From: Patescibacteria group bacterium
GTDB lineage: Bacteria > Patescibacteriota > Patescibacteriia > Patescibacteriales > JAQTRU01
Length of the DNA stretch: 55,872 bases
Direction of reading: 5' to 3'
Assembly (NCBI GenBank): GCA_028711415.1
Contig: JAQTSG010000001.1
Coordinates: 1 to 55,872 of the forward strand
Notes under the pieces: model-generated
Told to the model about the DNA's origin: nothing
The model's input: only the letters and a program-made list of their open reading frames with translations
Databases searched by the model: none
Shown here: in pieces, positions 11,213-47,820 of the stretch
Layout of the letters: each line of letters begins with the position of its first letter
Numbering within the stretch: position 1 is the first letter of the stretch
Position numbers and translations under genes: made by a program

Positions 11213-12013
11213 ATGGATATAAGCATCATAATTTTAAACTATAAAAGCCGGGGGCTTACTTTAAACTGCGTTAAATCAATTAAGGAGGCGGATTTTAGCA
11301 ATTTAAGATATGAAATAATCGTCGTGGATAATAATTCTGATGATGGTATTGGTGAAATTTTGGCCTGGCAGTATCCGGAGATTAAATTTATTCAGAACAA
11401 GAAAAATTTAGGTATGGGCGCGGGTAATAATGTCGGCCTAAAAAAATCGGAAGGAAAATATATGGTGGTAATGAACCCAGACACGATAGCTTTTCCGGAT
11501 ACTTTCAGGAAGATGCATGAGTTTATGGAAGCTAACTCCGAAGTCGGCCTGGCCGGCCCGAAGCAGTTTTATCCGGACCGGTCTGTTCAAAATTCCTGCT
11601 ATCGGTGGTATAATTTACTTACACCGGTTTACCGACGCACGCCCTTAGGAAAGTTTAAGTTCGCGCGAAGAGATGTGGCCAGATTTTTAATGAAAGATTT
11701 TGATCACAATGAAAAGAGGGAAGTGGATTGGCTTTTGGGCTCATTTTTATTCTGCCGCCGGGCTTGCCTTGACCAGATTGGACTTTTTGACGAAAGGTTT
11801 TTTATGTATTTTGAAGATACTGATCTTTGCCGTCGGGCTTCAAGCCGGGGCTGGAAAGTGGTGTACTATCCGGAAAGCCAGATTATTCATAATCACAAAA
11901 GGGAAAGCGCGGAAACGCTCTGGTATAAATTTCTCTGGAATAAGACAAGCCGGACGCATATCATTTCCTGGCTGAAGTATTTGAAGAAATGGAGGAACGC
12001 GCATAACGCATAA
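11213..12013 (+). CDS. Family 2 glycosyltransferase
   Basis: MDISIIILNYK, VVDNNSDDG, VMNPDT, YFEDTDLC motifs; the stop codon lies inside the first GCATAAC repeats. Confidence 0.85.
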   Translation: MDISIIILNYKSRGLTLNCVKSIKEADFSNLRYEIIVVDNNSDDGIGEILAWQYPEIKFIQNKKNLGMGAGNNVGLKKSEGKYMVVMNPDTIAFPDTFRKMHEFMEANSEVGLAGPKQFYPDRSVQNSCYRWYNLLTPVYRRTPLGKFKFARRDVARFLMKDFDHNEKREVDWLLGSFLFCRRACLDQIGLFDERFFMYFEDTDLCRRASSRGWKVVYYPESQIIHNHKRESAETLWYKFLWNKTSRTHIISWLKYLKKWRNAHNA

Positions 12014-12128
12014 CGCATAACGCATAACGCATAACGCATAACGCATAACGCATAACGCATAACGCATAACGCATAACGCATAACGCATAACGCATAACGC
12101 ATAACGCATAACGCATAACGCATAACGC
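12001..12128 (+). repeat. Tandem heptanucleotide microsatellite (GCATAAC) x18
   Basis: Counted directly: 18 perfect units 12001-12126 plus a partial unit. Confidence 0.95.
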
Positions 12129-12202
12129 TCTTCTTCCTTAAAAGGTTTTTGAAAAAATAATTTTCTAATACCTATCATCTAACACCTAACATCTAAAAAA
12201 TT

Positions 12203-13066
12203 ATGCAAAAAATAAAAAAAGCCATTGTAGCGGTGGCTGGTTCAGGGACGCGTCTCCTGCCCGCCACTAAAACCATGCCTAAGGAAATGCTGCCGATTGT
12301 GGATAAACCAATTGTCCAGCTTGTGGTTGAGGAATTAGTGGCCGGTGGAATTGAGGATATAATTTTAATAACGAAATGGGATAAAAAACCTTTGGAAGAC
12401 CATTTTGACCATAGTTGGGCGCTTGAGCAGGATTTGGAGAAGTCGGGCAAAACTAAACTTTTAAAAGAGATTGTGAGACTGTCAGAAATGGCGAATTTTA
12501 TTTATGTTCGCCAAAAAGGTCCGTACGGAAATGGTACGCCGGTTTTGTCCGCCGCCAGTTTGGTGGATGATGAGCCGTTTATGTATGTCTGGGGAGATGA
12601 TTTGGTTGACGCAAAAGTGTCATTTACCAAGCAGATGATAAAAGATTATGAAAAAAGCGGGCACTTAATGATTGGCGTGCAGGAAGTGCCAAGAGAGGAA
12701 GTGTCCCGCTATGGCATTGTTAAATTAAAAGGTAAAACCATGCAGATAGAAGATATTATTGAAAAGCCGTCGGTTGAGGAAGCGCCCTCGCGGTTGGCTG
12801 ATTTCGGCCGCATGATTTTAGACCAGGATATAATAGACATTTTGCGAAAGACCCCGCTGGGCAAAGGCAATGAGCTTTGGATCGTTGACGCGATAAGGAA
12901 GTACGTAAAGGCGGGCGGGAAATTTTACGCTAAAAAAATCATGGACGGGGAGTGGCTTACTACCGGAGACCCGTTAAATTATTTCAAAGCGAATTTAAGA
13001 TATGGCCTGAAAGACAAAGAAATCGGGAAAGACTTAAAAGAATACATAAGAGGGCTGAAACTATAA
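12203..13066 (+). CDS. galU: UTP-glucose-1-phosphate uridylyltransferase
   Basis: AVAGSGTRLLPATKTMPKEMLPIVDKP N-terminal signature. Confidence 0.9.
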   Translation: MQKIKKAIVAVAGSGTRLLPATKTMPKEMLPIVDKPIVQLVVEELVAGGIEDIILITKWDKKPLEDHFDHSWALEQDLEKSGKTKLLKEIVRLSEMANFIYVRQKGPYGNGTPVLSAASLVDDEPFMYVWGDDLVDAKVSFTKQMIKDYEKSGHLMIGVQEVPREEVSRYGIVKLKGKTMQIEDIIEKPSVEEAPSRLADFGRMILDQDIIDILRKTPLGKGNELWIVDAIRKYVKAGGKFYAKKIMDGEWLTTGDPLNYFKANLRYGLKDKEIGKDLKEYIRGLKL

Positions 13067-20831: not shown

Positions 20832-22409
20832 ATGGAAAAAGAAAACAAAAAAATTTCTAACGGGGTGAACAATACTAAAGACTTTATTGTTGAGCAAATA
20901 AAAGAGCAGATAAGCGGATTTAAAGCGGAGGCGGAAGAAAAAACTTTCGGCCAGGTAACTGAAGTCGGCGACGGCATTGCCCGGGTTTCCGGCCTGTCCG
21001 ACGCTATGATGTCGGAAATGCTTGAATTTAAAACAGCCAGCGGGCCGGCTTATGGCGTAGTCCTTAACCTGGAAGAAGACAGCGTGGGCGCTATTATTTT
21101 GGGCGACGCTTCTTCAATTAAGGAAGGCGACGAGGTAATCGCTTTAAAGAGGATTTTGGAGGTTCCGGTCGGGGATGAACTGGTCGGCCGGGTAGTTAAT
21201 CCCCTAGGGAAGGCTTTAGACGGAAAAGGGGATTTAAAGACGAAAAAGTCCTATCCGATTGAAAAAATCGCTCCCGGAGTAATCGCCCGCGAATCAGTCA
21301 ACCAGCCGGTCCAGACCGGGATTAAGGCCGTTGATGCCATGATTCCAATCGGTCGGGGCCAAAGAGAACTGATAATCGGCGACCGCCAGATTGGTAAAAC
21401 CGCGATTGCCATTGACGCGATTATCAACCAGAAGGGTCAGCATATGAAATGCATTTACGTGGCGATCGGGCAGAAAGAGTCAAAAGTCGCTTCTATCGTA
21501 GCGCGCCTGGAGAAATTCGGCGCCATGAAATACACGACCGTGGTGATGGCCGGCGCTTCTGATCCGGCTCCGCTTCTTTATATCGCCCCTTACGCCGGTT
21601 GCGCTATGGCTGAATATTTTTTGGACAAAGGCGAAGATGTCTTAATAATTTATGATGATTTGTCAAAACACGCGGTGTCTTACCGCGAGGTTTCTTTGTT
21701 ACTTCGCCGGCCGCCGGGACGCGAAGCTTTTCCGGGAGACGTTTTTTATCTCCATTCCCGTTTGTTGGAAAGGGCTTGCAAATTAAATAAAGATTACGGC
21801 GGCGGCTCCATTACGGCTTTACCTTTAATTGAAACTCAGGCCGGAGACGTTTCCGCTTATATTCCAACCAATGTCATTTCCATAACTGACGGCCAAATTT
21901 ATCTGGAATCAGACCTTTTTTACAAAGGCAACCGCCCGGCTATAAATGCCGGTTTGTCCGTTTCCCGCGTCGGTAACAAAGCGCAAATCAAGGCTATGAA
22001 AAAAGTCGCTGGCCGGATGCGGTTAGAGGCGGCCCAATACAGGGAACTTGAAGCTTTTGCCCAGTTCGGCTCGGATCTAGACAAAGAAACGAAAGAAAAA
22101 CTGGAAAGGGGCCGGCGTATGATTGAAGTCTTAAAGCAGGACCAATACGTGCCGATGCCGGTAGGTCAGCAGGTAGTTATTTTCTTTGCTTTGATTTCCG
22201 GATTTTTAGATAATGTGCCGGTAGAAAAGGTCAAAGATTTTGAAGCTGGTCTCCTGGAGTATGTCCAGGACGTGAATTCTGATTTAGTAAAAGAAATAGA
22301 AAAAACCGGAGAATTAACTGAAAGCGAAGAAAAAAAGCTGGAAAAAACTATTAAAGATTATAAAGATACGCTGGATTATTTAGAGAGTGATAAAGTTAAA
22401 AGTTCATAA
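20832..22409 (+). CDS. atpA: F0F1 ATP synthase subunit alpha
   Basis: GDRQIGKT Walker A, ~15-aa N-terminal extension containing a repeat half-site. Confidence 0.95.
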
Positions 22410-22464
22410 AGTTATAAAGTTAAATACTTTAAGACTTTTTACTTTTAACTTTATAAACTAAGAG

Positions 22465-25525: not shown

Positions 25526-25610
25526 CTAGTTAAAAGTTTGTAAAGTTTATAAAGTTGAAAGTCCTCCTATTCGGACTTTATAACTTTTAACTTTATGACT
25601 TTATAACTAG
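25526..25610. repeat. AT-rich heptamer-word inverted repeat (AAGTTAT/ATAACTT word)
   Basis: CTAGTTAAAAGTTTGTAAAGTTTATAAAGTTGAAAGTCC ... GGACTTTATAACTTTTAACTTTATGACTTTATAACTAG. Confidence 0.85.
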
Positions 25611-26317: not shown

Positions 26318-26344
26318 TTAGCACTCTAAGGTCCTAAGTGCTAA
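26318..26344 (+). promoter_or_regulatory. CIRCE operator (HrcA binding site)
   Basis: TTAGCACTC-N9-AAGTGCTAA versus consensus TTAGCACTC-N9-GAGTGCTAA; located just downstream of the promoter. Confidence 0.85.
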
Positions 26345-26397
26345 TAATTAGCAAGCTAATAATTTATACGTCATAACCATATTTATAACCTTTAGCG

Positions 26398-26447
26398 CCT
26401 GTCTGCGCAGGCAGGTTATGCGATATGCGTTATGCGATATGCGTTAT
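26398..26447 (+). repeat. CCTGTCTGCGCAGGCAGG palindrome followed by (GTTATGCGATATGC)x2.3, abutting the groES ATG
   Basis: Direct read; the first 22 nt are identical to 10207-10228. Confidence 0.9.
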
Positions 26448-26732: not shown

Positions 26733-26770
26733 AATTAATATAAATAAATTTTTCGCATCCCGCGTTTCTC

Positions 26771-28448
<1,678 letters not shown>

Positions 28449-32165: not shown

Positions 32166-32273
32166 AGTTTAAAGTTTGTAAAGTTATAAAGTTTATAAGG
32201 TTGGAGGTTTATAAAGTTATTAGAAAATTGTTTCCCCCGACTTTATAACTTTATAAACTTTTTACTTTTAACT
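32166..32273. repeat. AT-rich heptamer-word inverted repeat (AAGTTAT word)
   Basis: AGTTTAAAGTTTGTAAAGTTATAAAGTTTATAAGG... / GACTTTATAACTTTATAAACTTTTTACTTTTAACT. Confidence 0.85.
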
Positions 32274-35910: not shown

Positions 35911-36315
35911 ATGAATTTTTCTACCAGGACAACTTACGGGCTTCGGGCCATGATTAGATTGGCGGGGCGCAAAGGCCCGGAATCTCTGTCTCTTCCCAAT
36001 ATCGCCAAAGCGGAAAATATTTCTTTGGGCTATTTGGAAAGATTATTTTCTGATTTGAAAAAAGGCGGTTTAGTTCAATCGGGCAAGGGCGTCAAGGGCG
36101 GCTATAAACTAGCAAAGCCAGCTGAAAGAATAGAGGTTTATGAAATAGTTAAATCTTTGGAGGGCAAGATGTCTCCATTCCATTGTCTGGACGAAGGTGG
36201 TAAAATTTATTGTAAGGTCAGCTGCCGATGCGGAGCGACCAAAGTTTTAATTAAAGTTCAAGAGGCCGTTAAAAAGACTTTGAAAGGAATAAAATTGAGC
36301 GACTTAGTCGCATAA
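35911..36315 (+). CDS. Rrf2 family transcriptional regulator (IscR-like)
   Basis: MNFSTRTTYGLRAMIRLA wHTH start; C-terminal Cys cluster HCLDEGGKIYCKVSCRCG; ATG 35911 preferred over the repeat-encoded extension. Confidence 0.85.
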   Translation: MNFSTRTTYGLRAMIRLAGRKGPESLSLPNIAKAENISLGYLERLFSDLKKGGLVQSGKGVKGGYKLAKPAERIEVYEIVKSLEGKMSPFHCLDEGGKIYCKVSCRCGATKVLIKVQEAVKKTLKGIKLSDLVA

Positions 36316-36334
36316 CGCATAACGAGAAGGTCTT

Positions 36335-37168: not shown

Positions 37169-37215
37169 TTTCGCATAACGCGTAACGCACAATGCATAAC
37201 ATGGTGCATAAAAAT

Positions 37216-37584
37216 ATGTCTTATTCCAAGAAAGTTTTAGAGCATTTTAAAAATCCCCATAACCAGGGCGTGATTAAGAATGCGGACGCGATCGGCAAGG
37301 TCGGAAATCCTACTTGCGGAGACGTCATGAAAATTTACATAAAAGTCAAAGATAATAAGATAAAAGATATAAAATTTGAGACTCTCGGTTGTGCCGCGGC
37401 CATTGCGGTGTCTTCGGCCCTGACCGATATGGTAAAGGGCAAAACCATAGAAGAAGCTCTAAAAGTAACAAAAGATAAAATTGTAAAAGATTTAGGCGGC
37501 CTGCCTCCGGTAAAAGTCCATTGTTCAATGCTCGGAGTTGAGGCCTTGCACGAAGCGATAAAGAATTACGAATCCAGTAATTAG
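37216..37584 (+). CDS. iscU: Fe-S cluster scaffold protein IscU/NifU N-terminal type
   Basis: GNPTCGDVM, LGCAAAIA, VHCS cysteine motifs. Confidence 0.9.
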   Translation: MSYSKKVLEHFKNPHNQGVIKNADAIGKVGNPTCGDVMKIYIKVKDNKIKDIKFETLGCAAAIAVSSALTDMVKGKTIEEALKVTKDKIVKDLGGLPPVKVHCSMLGVEALHEAIKNYESSN

Positions 37585-46428: not shown

Positions 46429-47820
46429 ATGAAATATAAGAAGACATATTACATAATCACCATCGGCTGCCAGATGAACAAGTCAGATAGTGAGAGAGTG
46501 GCGGCTTACTTAGAAAAGCATGGATACAGTTTAGCCAAGAGCGAAACTAAGGCGGATTTAATCGTGTTAACGACCTGCGGGGTCAGGCAGGCGGCCGAAG
46601 ACCGAGTTTATGGTTTGGTAGGAAAAATCAAGAAAAAAAATCCGAAGGGGAAATTAATTTTGACCGGCTGTTTAAGCGAACGGGAAGATGTTCGCCAGAG
46701 GTTAGGGGATAAAGTGGATCTGTGGCTACCAATATCACAAATTTTAAATTTTAAATTTCAAATTTTAAAGAAAGCCCGAAACCCGAAACCCGAAACCCGA
46801 AACTGCGATTATCTAGGGATAAAACCTAAATATAGTTCTAAATTTTCCGCTTTTGTGCCGATTGGCAACGGCTGTAATAATTTTTGCGCTTATTGCGTCG
46901 TGCCTTATGCTAGGGGGCGGGAAGTTTACCGGTCGGCCGAGGAGATTTTAGCCGAGGTGAGAGATCTAGTGGCGAGAGGTTATAAAGAAATTGTGTTGAT
47001 TGCGCAGAACGTTAACAGTTATAAAGTCAAAAGTCAAAAGTCAAAAGTCAAAAGAATTAATTTTTCTAGATTATTAAGGATGATAAGTGGTATTTCTGGG
47101 GATTTCTGGATAAGATTCGCCACCAGCCATCCGAAGGATATGAGCGATGAATTGATAAAGACCATTGCCGAATGCGATAAGGTTTGTAAACATATTCATT
47201 TGCCCGTGCAGGCCGGAGATGACGAAGTGCTTAAAAAAATGAATAGAGGATATACGAGGGAAGATTATATAAAATTGGTAAAGAAGATAAGAAATAGTTT
47301 GGAAATCCTAAATCCTAAATCCGAAATCCTAAACAAATTCAAAATTCAAAATTCAAAACCGGAGAGATTTAATCCTGTTTCGATAACAACTGATGTAATT
47401 GTCGGGTTTCCGGGCGAGACGAAAAAACAGTTTGCTAATACTGTAAAATTATTTAAAGAAGTAAAGTTTGATATGGCTTATATTGCCCGCTATAGCGGGA
47501 GGCCGGGAACAGCCGCTTATAAACTAAAAGATGATGTTTCGCTTGCTGAAAAAAAGAGAAGAGAAGAGGAATTAATAAAAATTTTACGTCGGACCGCGCT
47601 GGAAAATAATAAAAAGTATTTGGGGAAAACGGTGGAGGTGTTGGTTGTTGGGAAAAGCAGGAAGGGGGAGTGGTATGGATATACGGAGACGAATAAGAAT
47701 ACGGGAATTAAGATTTATGATTTAAGAATTAAGAATATTATTGGGAAGTTTGTAAAAGTTAAAATAATTAAAGCGAGAGATTTTGGGTTGGAAGGAGTGT
47801 ATACGAAAGAAACGAAATAA
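46429..47820 (+). CDS. miaB: tRNA methylthiotransferase MiaB (radical SAM) with three repeat-derived insertions
   Basis: GCQMNKSDSE, TTCGV, TGC N-domain cysteines; GCNNFCAYCVVPYARGRE radical-SAM motif; C-terminal TRAM. Confidence 0.9.
   Translation: MKYKKTYYIITIGCQMNKSDSERVAAYLEKHGYSLAKSETKADLIVLTTCGVRQAAEDRVYGLVGKIKKKNPKGKLILTGCLSEREDVRQRLGDKVDLWLPISQILNFKFQILKKARNPKPETRNCDYLGIKPKYSSKFSAFVPIGNGCNNFCAYCVVPYARGREVYRSAEEILAEVRDLVARGYKEIVLIAQNVNSYKVKSQKSKVKRINFSRLLRMISGISGDFWIRFATSHPKDMSDELIKTIAECDKVCKHIHLPVQAGDDEVLKKMNRGYTREDYIKLVKKIRNSLEILNPKSEILNKFKIQNSKPERFNPVSITTDVIVGFPGETKKQFANTVKLFKEVKFDMAYIARYSGRPGTAAYKLKDDVSLAEKKRREEELIKILRRTALENNKKYLGKTVEVLVVGKSRKGEWYGYTETNKNTGIKIYDLRIKNIIGKFVKVKIIKARDFGLEGVYTKETK

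What the first reader, a model, noticed from the sequence alone, without database searches (positions are those of the whole stretch)
12001..12128. 18-copy GCATAAC heptanucleotide microsatellite; the same heptamer abuts start codons of groES, groEL, ldt and iscU
A perfect (GCATAAC)x18 tract begins inside the last codons and stop of a GT2 gene and lies 75 nt upstream of galU. Short tracts of the same word occur at four other places. They are in reverse orientation at 26415-26447 (touching the groES ATG) and 26771-26799 (5 nt before the groEL ATG). They are in forward orientation at 36310-24 (overlapping the rrf2 stop, before ldt) and 37173-37200 (before iscU). Seven is not a multiple of three. 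Copy-number slippage would therefore change promoter-to-gene spacing or UTR structure without altering the upstream protein, which is a classic phase-variation layout. The recurrent placement at translation starts of SD-less genes hints instead at a protein- or RNA-binding array.
Basis: seen in the sequence. Interest (0 to 1): 0.6.

Follow-up and report, generated by a model that had tools for sequence, protein, structure and literature searches.

The report
Hyper-expanded heptamer microsatellite at gene boundary
The 18-copy GCATAAC tract is the longest copy of a 7-base repeat family scattered through an ultra-small (Falkowbacteria-like) bacterial genome; its copy number differs between sister species and it supplies stop or start codons to neighbouring genes, and nothing shows it to be a purpose-built genetic switch.

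Summary

It is not a local oddity. The genome (1.1 Mb) holds about 47 GCATAAC arrays within a large excess of period-7 tandem repeats. No MutS, MutL or Rho was found.

Copy number differs at orthologous sites in congeners:
- GT2-galU: 18 / 2 / 3 / 0
- rrf2-ldt: 2 / 6 / 1 / 0
- a third site: 9 / 14

The arrays are polar. With GCATAAC on the coding strand (TAA in all three frames) they touch or supply the upstream gene's stop (26/26). In reverse (GUUAUGC: AUG in all frames, no stops) they touch or supply the downstream start (7/8). The same strand and position rule is published for the Xanthomonas and Nostoc heptamer repeats (PMC4692102).

The x18 tract ends 20 nt upstream of a predicted galU promoter that is conserved in the 2-copy relative. 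Its RNA is unstructured. Family members also sit in ribosomal, chaperonin and Fe-S operons.

Verdict: a new member of a known kind, the dispersed heptameric SSR. This scan had already noted the genome's heptamer repeats.

The parts
12000..12128 (+). (GCATAAC)x18.4 perfect heptanucleotide array. This is the longest member of the genome's GCATAAC family. Units 1-2 encode the last GT2 residues (AHNA) and its TAA stop.
11213..12013 (+). GT2 glycosyltransferase gene whose C-terminal tail and stop codon are array sequence.
   Evidence: PF00535/PF13641. In one search the tail after KW(R/G) differs in every relative.
12149..12178 (+). Predicted sigma-70-type galU promoter, TTGAAA-18-TATCAT, 20 nt downstream of the array.
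   Evidence: 10/12 matches. It is conserved in G002, and the -35 is conserved in G003.
12164..12196 (+). Second heptamer array of another family (CTAACAC type, 4.6 copies), directly before the galU ATG. It is conserved in G002 and G003.
12203..13066 (+). galU-like nucleotidyl transferase gene downstream of the array.
   Evidence: PF00483
26415..26447 (-). Reverse-orientation array (GTTATGC/GATATGC alternating, 4.4 units) abutting the groES ATG. It replaces the GGAGG-containing leader seen in G002.
26770..26799 (-). Reverse-orientation array (4.3 units) 5 nt before the groEL ATG. Relatives carry other heptamer families in this spacer.
36309..36324 (+). Forward array x2.3 containing the rrf2 stop (GTC GCA TAA). 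Relatives have x6.3 (G003), x1 (G001) and none (G002, G004).
37172..37200 (+). Degenerate forward array (4 units with substitutions) 3 nt after the ldt stop. A similarly degenerate copy is in G003. G001 and G002 have a GC-rich hairpin here instead.

Best explanation
The tract is a simple-sequence repeat: the most expanded locus of a dispersed GCATAAC heptamer family in a Falkowbacteria-like (Patescibacteria) genome that is saturated with period-7 tandem arrays.

Shown:
- Family membership.
- Copy-number change at orthologous loci between congeners.
- A strict orientation rule relative to gene ends.
- No mismatch-repair genes were found.

Inferred:
- Length changes arise by replication slippage of 7-nt units. 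The perfect purity of the long arrays points to recent expansion. The published idea is that 7 nt matches the DNA segment held in the polymerase active site (Mrazek 2007, cited in PMC4692102).
- Where arrays survive is set by what the unit encodes. On the coding strand GCATAAC puts TAA in all three frames every 21 nt. It is therefore harmless only at or after a gene's 3' end, where it can replace the native stop and last codons. In reverse it reads GUU-AUG-C, has no stop in any frame and offers AUG in all frames. It can therefore sit on a gene's 5' end and even provide the start codon.
- The x18 tract lies between the GT2 stop and the galU promoter, where extra length costs nothing. It is probably near-neutral junk or selfish sequence, not a regulatory device.
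For: Repeat excess:
- TRF score >=50 finds 102 period-7, 79 period-14 and 42 period-8 arrays, against 0 for periods 3-6 and 0 period-7 arrays in a local shuffle.
- There are 144 perfect period-7 runs, against 18 for period 6 and 4 for period 9.
- There are 47 GCATAAC arrays genome-wide.

Orthologous copy numbers, G000/G002/G003:
- GT2-galU 18.4 / 2 / 3, with 0 in G004.
- rrf2-ldt 2.3 / 0 / 6.3, with 1 in G001.
- C24 site 9.3 / 14.3 (G002; G003 not compared); C55 4.3 / 3.7 (G003); C23 2.7 / 3.6 (G003). Two sites have an array in a relative only.
- The G001-lineage metagenome contigs have 3-6 reverse units at the galU ATG.

Other points:
- No MutS_V or MutL domain was found in a 97%-complete genome.
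- Polarity: 30 of 34 arrays have the 5' edge nearer a gene end (p=6e-6). Within 25 nt: sense-stop 26/26, antisense-start 7/8, sense-start 7/24, antisense-stop 1/10.
- The start ATG lies inside the last array unit for RuvC (MREIILGIDPG), a sugar transferase and FolD.
- Forward arrays inside ORFs carry GCATATC or GCAAAAC exactly where TAA would be in frame.
- The tract's RNA is unstructured (z=+0.99).
- The same strand and position rule and the same inter-species length variation are published for GGGAATC and GGGGAYT repeats.
Against: - Within-population length heterogeneity, the direct sign of active slippage, could not be examined.
- Local seeding plus slippage does not explain why one heptamer occupies about 47 loci. 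The contexts GCA-TAA-C and GTT-ATG-C should occur by chance at only a few gene ends.
- It also does not explain why the same site carries unrelated heptamer families in sister species: the CCA-enzyme loop has GCATAAC, CAGATTT or AAACTAA, and the groES-groEL spacer and C44 16111 behave likewise.
- The selection argument for polarity is an inference. The Xanthomonas unit GGGAATC shows the same polarity without containing a stop triplet.
- My gene calls are ORF-based. ORF starts run into reverse arrays by construction. The true start was checked against relatives' sequences only for groES, groEL and galU, and by eye against typical N-termini for RuvC, FolD and L6.
Confidence: 0.62

Rival explanations
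1. Arrays are deposited or spread by an active process and are only secondarily resized by slippage. Candidates are a mobile heptamer-armed element, ectopic template switching between arrays, or an unknown templated repeat synthesis at gene ends. On this view the x18 tract is a one-armed, over-grown copy.
For: - One unit occurs at about 47 loci.
- Unrelated heptamer families occupy the same site in sister species.
- Some copies form sense + loop + antisense hairpins: the CCA-enzyme insertion and C1 11696/11788.
- A PF05635 gene flanked by inverted heptamer arms is present in G000 but absent at the G003 orthologous site.
- The family is patchy among relatives: 10 of 61 genomes including G000, and absent from congener G001.
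- The polarity holds regardless of unit sequence (PMC4692102).
Against: - Array flanks share no conserved sequence, target duplication or terminal repeat.
- Most GCATAAC arrays are single direct arrays.
- A Cloacimonadota genome with at least 30 GCATAAC loci has no PF05635 gene.
- None was found in viral contigs.
- At rrf2-ldt a single GCATAAC containing the native stop exists in G001, which is compatible with local seeding.
Confidence: 0.2
2. Phase-variable contingency switch. Slippage of the tract tunes or switches expression of galU and/or the GT2 operon, and so varies the cell-surface glycan.
For: - The tract lies between a glycosyltransferase gene and galU.
- Other long or positioned arrays lie at sugar genes: an NTP transferase, a GDP-mannose-dehydratase-like epimerase, a Bac_transf gene, Wzy_C and GT4.
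- Copy number is labile.
- Heptanucleotide promoter SSRs do tune hmw1A/hmw2A in H. influenzae (PMC8262952, PMC12721329).
Against: - The tract lies upstream of the predicted -35, not between promoter elements or in the ORF.
- The same promoter and leader are kept with 2 copies in G002.
- Beyond about 4 copies the promoter-proximal sequence no longer changes.
- The RNA is unstructured and no Rho was found.
- The family is equally present in rpsM-rpsK, rplF, groESL, iscU, ruvC and folD contexts.
Confidence: 0.1
3. Binding-site array or translation leader. The repeated heptamer recruits a protein, an RNA or the ribosome at SD-less starts.
For: - Reverse arrays replace the GGAGG leader of groES and abut or provide start codons.
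- The junction GTTATGmGAATAT-ATG recurs at G000 groEL and at G001 galU.
Against: - Three quarters of the arrays are in the other orientation, at stops and not at starts.
- Copy number ranges from 2 to 18 with no preferred value.
- Relatives use unrelated heptamers or ordinary SD leaders at the same genes.
- Reverse arrays add out-of-frame AUGs.
- No candidate binder was identified.
Confidence: 0.06
4. Assembly artefact: the tract or its length is created by the assembler.
For: - A 129-nt perfect repeat is close to the read and k-mer length.
- In other MAGs, arrays of 131-143 nt end contigs.
Against: - The same array sits at the same junction in independently assembled congeners.
- No G000 contig ends in a heptamer array.
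- Only the exact count of 18 is in doubt.
Confidence: 0.02

Closest known systems
Dispersed heptameric SSR families GGGAATC (Xanthomonas) and GGGGA(T/C)T (Nostoc PCC 7120), Rehm et al. 2015, PMC4692102
   Same: - One 7-nt unit occurs at many intergenic loci, mostly between co-directional genes.
- The typical size is about 4 units, with rare long perfect arrays (14 units in Xcc).
- Some copies form inverted pairs.
- Length varies extensively between close relatives.
- The strand rule is the same: on the coding strand within 50 bp of, or overlapping, the stop; on the non-coding strand within 50 bp upstream of the ORF.
   Different: - The unit here is A/T-rich with a single G, so no G-quadruplex can form.
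- The unit carries TAA on one strand and ATG on the other, and demonstrably supplies stop and start codons.
- The host is a 1.1-Mb Patescibacteria genome in which no MutS or MutL was found.
- Many different heptamer families coexist, and they also invade ORFs in frame.
STRR (short tandemly repeated repetitive) heptanucleotides of heterocystous cyanobacteria (Calothrix/Anabaena; cited in PMC4692102, otherwise from my own knowledge)
   Same: Several distinct 7-nt tandem repeat families are dispersed in intergenic DNA, and their function is unknown.
   Different: The sequences and the phylum differ. A gene-end codon-donation rule is not part of the STRR description as far as I know.
Heptanucleotide promoter/5'UTR SSR of Haemophilus influenzae hmw1A/hmw2A (PMC8262952, PMC12721329)
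   Same: A 7-nt unit upstream of a gene, with copy number that varies by slippage.
   Different: - There the repeat lies within the transcribed or promoter region and is shown to grade expression.
- Here the tract lies upstream of the predicted promoter.
- Here it belongs to a genome-wide family that is not restricted to surface genes.
- No expression effect has been shown here.
Rickettsia palindromic elements inserted in frame into protein genes (from my own knowledge, Ogata et al. 2000)
   Same: Repeat sequence is tolerated inside conserved ORFs as extra loop residues (CCA-adding enzyme, 3-methyladenine glycosylase, GT4).
   Different: Those are 100-150-bp palindromic mobile elements of fixed sequence. 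Here the inserts are short arrays of 7-nt units, with a point variant that removes the in-frame stop.

Membership tests
Simple sequence repeat (microsatellite) evolving by slippage | Head-to-tail perfect copies of a short unit | tested here: met
   18.4 copies with 100% matches
Simple sequence repeat (microsatellite) evolving by slippage | Copy number differs at the orthologous locus between related genomes while the flanks are conserved | tested here: met
   18 / 2 / 3 / 0 at GT2-galU; 2.3 / 6.3 / 1 / 0 at rrf2-ldt; 9.3 / 14.3 at C24
Simple sequence repeat (microsatellite) evolving by slippage | Length heterogeneity among reads of one population | not testable with these tools
No exact-flank contig was found in the metagenome collection.
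Dispersed heptameric SSR family (Xanthomonas/Nostoc type, PMC4692102) | The same 7-nt unit occurs at many, mostly intergenic, loci of one genome | tested here: met
   47 arrays, the second most common heptamer family. The reversed-pattern control gave 0.
Dispersed heptameric SSR family (Xanthomonas/Nostoc type, PMC4692102) | Strand rule: on the coding strand next to the stop, on the non-coding strand next to the start | tested here: met
   26/26 and 7/8 within 25 nt; the opposite combinations give 7/24 and 1/10
Dispersed heptameric SSR family (Xanthomonas/Nostoc type, PMC4692102) | G-rich unit able to form G-quadruplexes | tested here: not met
   The unit GCATAAC has one G. The RNA fold is unstructured. 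It therefore works like that class but is not the G4 subclass.
Phase-variable contingency locus | The repeat lies inside the ORF, between -35 and -10, or in the 5'UTR, so that unit changes switch or grade expression | tested here: not met
   The tract follows the GT2 stop and ends 20 nt upstream of the predicted -35. The promoter itself is only a consensus match.
Phase-variable contingency locus | Restricted to surface or host-interaction genes | tested here: inconclusive
   GT2/galU and several sugar genes carry arrays, but so do rpsM-rpsK, rplF, groESL, iscU, ruvC, folD and the cca gene.
MITE/REP-like mobile element | Conserved ends, inverted repeats or a hairpin, and a target-site duplication | tested here: not met
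   The flanks of 39 arrays share no conserved sequence. The tract has no hairpin. Only 2-3 loci form inverted pairs.

The most novel reading that the evidence does not exclude
Heptamer arrays in this and other bacteria are not just slipped microsatellites. They are laid down by an unrecognised polar process that acts at gene termini. The array's purine/A-rich strand always runs 5'->3' away from the nearest gene end. The same tolerant site is refilled with unrelated heptamers in sister species. One unit (GCATAAC) has become a dispersed family independently in Patescibacteria, Cloacimonadota and Chloroflexota. The arrays routinely rewrite the stop codons, start codons and terminal residues of essential genes.
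Probability: 0.15. Interest if true: 0.8.

Novelty: new member of a known kind. Interest (0 to 1): 0.45.

Why it matters
The tract shows that the dispersed heptameric repeats known from Xanthomonas and cyanobacteria also dominate the intergenic DNA of an ultra-small CPR genome in which no mismatch-repair genes were found.

It also gives a concrete, testable reason for their puzzling strand rule: the triplets the unit carries (TAA on one strand, ATG on the other) decide where each orientation can survive. In practice, gene callers will mis-place starts and stops at such arrays, for example by adding N-terminal extensions such as MRYALC. Copy number at such loci could also serve as a fine-scale strain marker for uncultured Patescibacteria.

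The unexplained parts remain an open mechanistic question about how bacterial genomes generate repeats. Those parts are one unit at dozens of loci, different units at the same site in sister species, and the polarity.

Tried and rejected
- The exact GalU protein was not on record elsewhere.
- An IUPAC pattern of the array's 3' flank found nothing in metagenome contigs.
- (GCATAAC)x4 was not found in viral contigs.
- Rho-utilisation-site idea (C>G, unstructured RNA after stops): rejected. No Rho was found, and most arrays are 14-35 nt and lie inside operons such as rpsM-rpsK.
- Terminator or hairpin role for the x18 tract: rejected (fold z=+0.99).
- Polar decay (old units degenerating on the 3' side): rejected. 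In-phase similarity of the 3' flank equals the null, 1.8-2.1 against 1.82.
- Long arrays breaking the G000 assembly: none of 136 contig ends is an array.
- PF05635 (23S rRNA IVS protein) cassettes as the source of this family: only a loose neighbourhood in G000, and the Cloacimonadota genome with the family has no PF05635.
- Mis-binned CPR contigs as the cause of the cross-phylum hits: rejected by GC content (0.47 and 0.53 against 0.39).
- Cross-phylum sharing of the unit as proof of horizontal spread: not accepted. With about 1,170 heptamer classes, several families per repeat-rich genome and 185,000 genomes searched, chance convergence is plausible.
- Polarity in the mixed-phylum loci was weaker (44 against 29, p=0.1), using crude length-only gene calls.

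Full report
**Observation.** The window holds a perfect heptanucleotide array at 12000-12128: period 7, 18.4 copies, 100% matches. The 14-mer GCATAACGCATAAC occurs 20 times in the window and never in 100 dinucleotide-preserving shuffles. The upstream ORF is a family-2 glycosyltransferase and the downstream one a GalU-type nucleotidyl transferase. The GT2 frame reads ...K W R N A H N A TAA, so its last four residues and its stop (12011-12013) are array sequence. The galU ATG (12203) lies 74 nt after the array.

- A reverse array (GTTATGC/GATATGC alternating) ends on the base before the groES ATG.
- A reverse array lies 5 nt before the groEL ATG.
- A forward x2.3 array holds the rrf2 stop.
- A degenerate forward array starts 3 nt after the ldt (YkuD) stop.

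Two details need correcting. ldt has an AGAAGG Shine-Dalgarno-like motif. iscU most likely starts at 37216, 15 nt after the tract.

**Genome context.** The window is contig C9 of a 1.095-Mb, 68-contig, 41% GC genome. Records with the closest loci are named Candidatus Falkowbacteria / Patescibacteria. Tandem repeats of period 7 (and 14, and to a lesser degree 8) are hugely over-represented. At TRF score >=50 there are 102 period-7, 79 period-14 and 42 period-8 arrays. There are none for periods 3-6, and no period-7 arrays in a composition-preserving local shuffle. Perfect period-7 runs number 144, against 18 for period 6 and 4 for period 9. There are 108 different heptamer units; GCATAAC (canonical AACGCAT) is the second most common. 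A tolerant scan finds 47 GCATAAC arrays; the next longest have 9.3, 8.3 and 7.3 copies. Earlier agents of this scan had already described the general heptamer phenomenon in this genome. This report concerns the GCATAAC family.

- GT2-galU: G000 has 18 units. G002 has 2 with the same flanks, the same downstream promoter-like sequence and the same CTAACAC array. G003 has 3 (GCATAAC TCATAAC TCATAAC). G004 has none. G001 has a different spacer with a reverse GCATAAC-type array abutting the galU ATG.
- Metagenome contigs of the G001 lineage carry 3-6 reverse units at that ATG.
- rrf2-ldt: the series is 2.3 (G000), 6.3 (G003), 1 (G001) and 0 (G002, G004).
- Starting from arrays in G002 and G003, further pairs are 9.3 against 14.3, 4.3 against 3.7 and 2.7 against 3.6. 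Some sites have an array only in the relative. One site has another heptamer family in G000.

The ldt-iscU array is degenerate in both G000 and G003, so it is old. The long arrays are perfect, so they expanded recently. No MutS or MutL domain was found in the 97%-complete genome.

**Position rule.** With ORF-based gene calls, 30 of 34 intergenic arrays have the 5' edge of the GCATAAC strand closer to a gene end than the 3' edge (p=6e-6; medians -3 and 74.5 nt). Counts of arrays whose edge lies within 25 nt of a gene end:

| Orientation and gene end | Arrays within 25 nt |
|---|---|
| Forward, upstream stop | 26 of 26 |
| Reverse, downstream start | 7 of 8 |
| Forward, downstream start | 7 of 24 |
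| Reverse, upstream stop | 1 of 10 |

The unit explains much of this. CGC-ATA-ACG-CAT-AAC-GCA-TAA places TAA in every frame within 21 nt. The complement, GTT-ATG-CGT-TAT-GCG-TTA-TGC, has no stop and has ATG in every frame.
- In 18 of the 34 cases the ORF abutting the array's 5' edge overlaps the array; for forward arrays this means the upstream ORF's stop lies inside the array.
- For RuvC (MREIILGIDPG), a Bac_transf sugar transferase and FolD (MSYAKIIDG), the plausible start ATG is an array unit.
- Forward arrays that lie inside ORFs carry GCATATC or GCAAAAC exactly where TAA would fall in frame, giving RITHNA(Y/K)RITHN peptides. The ORFs are a 3-methyladenine glycosylase, a GT4 and a CCA-adding enzyme.
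- All period-7 arrays of the genome, oriented A-rich strand up, show the same polarity (79 against 41, p=7e-4).

The same rule is published for GGGAATC in Xanthomonas and GGGGAYT in Nostoc: coding strand near or overlapping the stop, non-coding strand just upstream of the ORF. That paper also reports length variation between close relatives and a polymerase-footprint hypothesis for the 7-nt preference (PMC4692102).

**Function of the x18 tract.**
- The only good promoter match near galU (TTGAAA-18-TATCAT, 12149-12178) starts 20 nt after the tract and is conserved in the 2-copy relative. Slippage therefore would not alter -35/-10 spacing or a 5'UTR made from it. Beyond about 4 units the promoter-proximal DNA no longer changes.
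- The RNA is unstructured (z=+0.99) and no Rho was found. A terminator or rut role is unlikely.
- Family members flank glycan genes: GT2, GalU, an NTP transferase, a GDP-mannose-dehydratase-type epimerase, Bac_transf, Wzy_C and GT4.
- They equally flank rpsM-rpsK, rplF, groES/groEL (downstream of a CIRCE operator), iscU, ruvC, folD, ftsW/murG and a SpoU methylase.

This is not the profile of a contingency-locus system or of a dedicated binding array. I therefore read the tract as a near-neutral, hyper-expanded SSR in one of the few places where a compact genome tolerates extra DNA.

**What slippage does not explain.**
- One unit at about 47 loci cannot come from local seeds alone.
- The same site carries unrelated heptamers in sister species. 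The loop after RDFTINAMA in the CCA-adding enzyme has a GCATAAC sense-loop-antisense hairpin in G000, CAGATTT x4 in G001 and AAACTAA x3 in G003. The groES-groEL spacer holds a different heptamer family or hairpin in G000, in G002/G003, and in G001/G004.
- Among 61 genomes of the order (G000 included), (GCATAAC)x3 occurs in 10, patchily; the reversed-sequence control gives 0.
- GCATAAC is also a dispersed family (dozens of loci) in a Cloacimonadota MAG and a Roseiflexaceae MAG. Their loci have their own GC content (0.47 and 0.53), so they are not mis-binned CPR DNA.
- With about 1,170 heptamer classes and 185,000 genomes searched, convergence by chance is plausible, so I do not take this as proof of transfer.
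- The PF05635 gene cassettes with heptamer arms noted by an earlier agent exist: there are 15 copies in G000, and one is absent from G003's orthologous site. They are only loosely near GCATAAC arrays, and the Cloacimonadota genome has none.

An active deposition or spreading process therefore stays open as a rival for the origin of arrays (about 0.2).

**Limits.**
- Gene calls are my own ORF and codon-score calls.
- The number 18 is an assembly value. In other MAGs such arrays end contigs at 131-143 nt, though none does in G000.
- No expression or population data were available.

**Verdict.** The phase-variation and binding-array readings are not supported by the layout. The tract is a new member (Patescibacteria, non-G4, stop/start-donating) of the known class of dispersed heptameric SSRs.

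Noticed in passing
window 26318-26344: CIRCE-type operator (TTAGCACTC-N9-AAGTGCTAA) upstream of groES, conserved in all four relatives. The reverse GCATAAC array and a GC-rich palindrome lie between it and the groES ATG.
   Followed up: partly
window 26397-26415; also L002 (G003 galU upstream) and L127 (G001 rrf2-ldt spacer): Short GC-rich palindromes (GCCTGTCTGCGCAGGCAGG type) are inserted next to or inside heptamer arrays at different spacers in different congeners. They look like a second, independent small insertion element.
   Followed up: no
G000:C38:5269-5342 (L228); L230, L232: The same loop of the CCA-adding enzyme (after RDFTINAMA) carries three unrelated heptamer arrays in three congeners: a GCATAAC hairpin, CAGATTT x4 and AAACTAA x3.
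   Followed up: partly
G000:C23:26800-27300 (L225): A PF05635 (23S rRNA intervening-sequence protein) gene is flanked by inverted AATTTTC-type heptamer arms and is absent from the orthologous G003 site. G000 has 15 PF05635 genes in 1.1 Mb.
   Followed up: partly
G000:C44:9023-9835 (L226): An AT-rich 270-aa ORF without a Pfam match sits in G000 exactly where G002 and G003 have a 5-6-unit GCATAAC array.
   Followed up: no
L120, L121 (G003, G002 groES-groEL spacer): This spacer is a hairpin with heptamer arms (AATAATG/AAAATGA and their complements), with GGAGGAAC in the loop.
   Followed up: no
window 22386-22452, 25533-25608, 32166-32273: Period-8 arrays (AGTTATAA) are paired with their reverse complement a few bases away, forming long AT-rich hairpins at gene boundaries.
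   Followed up: no
window 46739-47358 and 47705-47736: miaB carries several in-frame heptamer arrays (AAATTTT, GAAACCC, AAAGTCA, AAATCCT, AAATTCA, GAATTAA). The AAATTTT array has a C variant where TAA would be in frame. This was already covered by an earlier report.
   Followed up: partly
whole genome G000: No MutS_V, MutL (DNA_mis_repair) or Rho RNA-binding domain was found in a 97%-complete assembly.
   Followed up: partly
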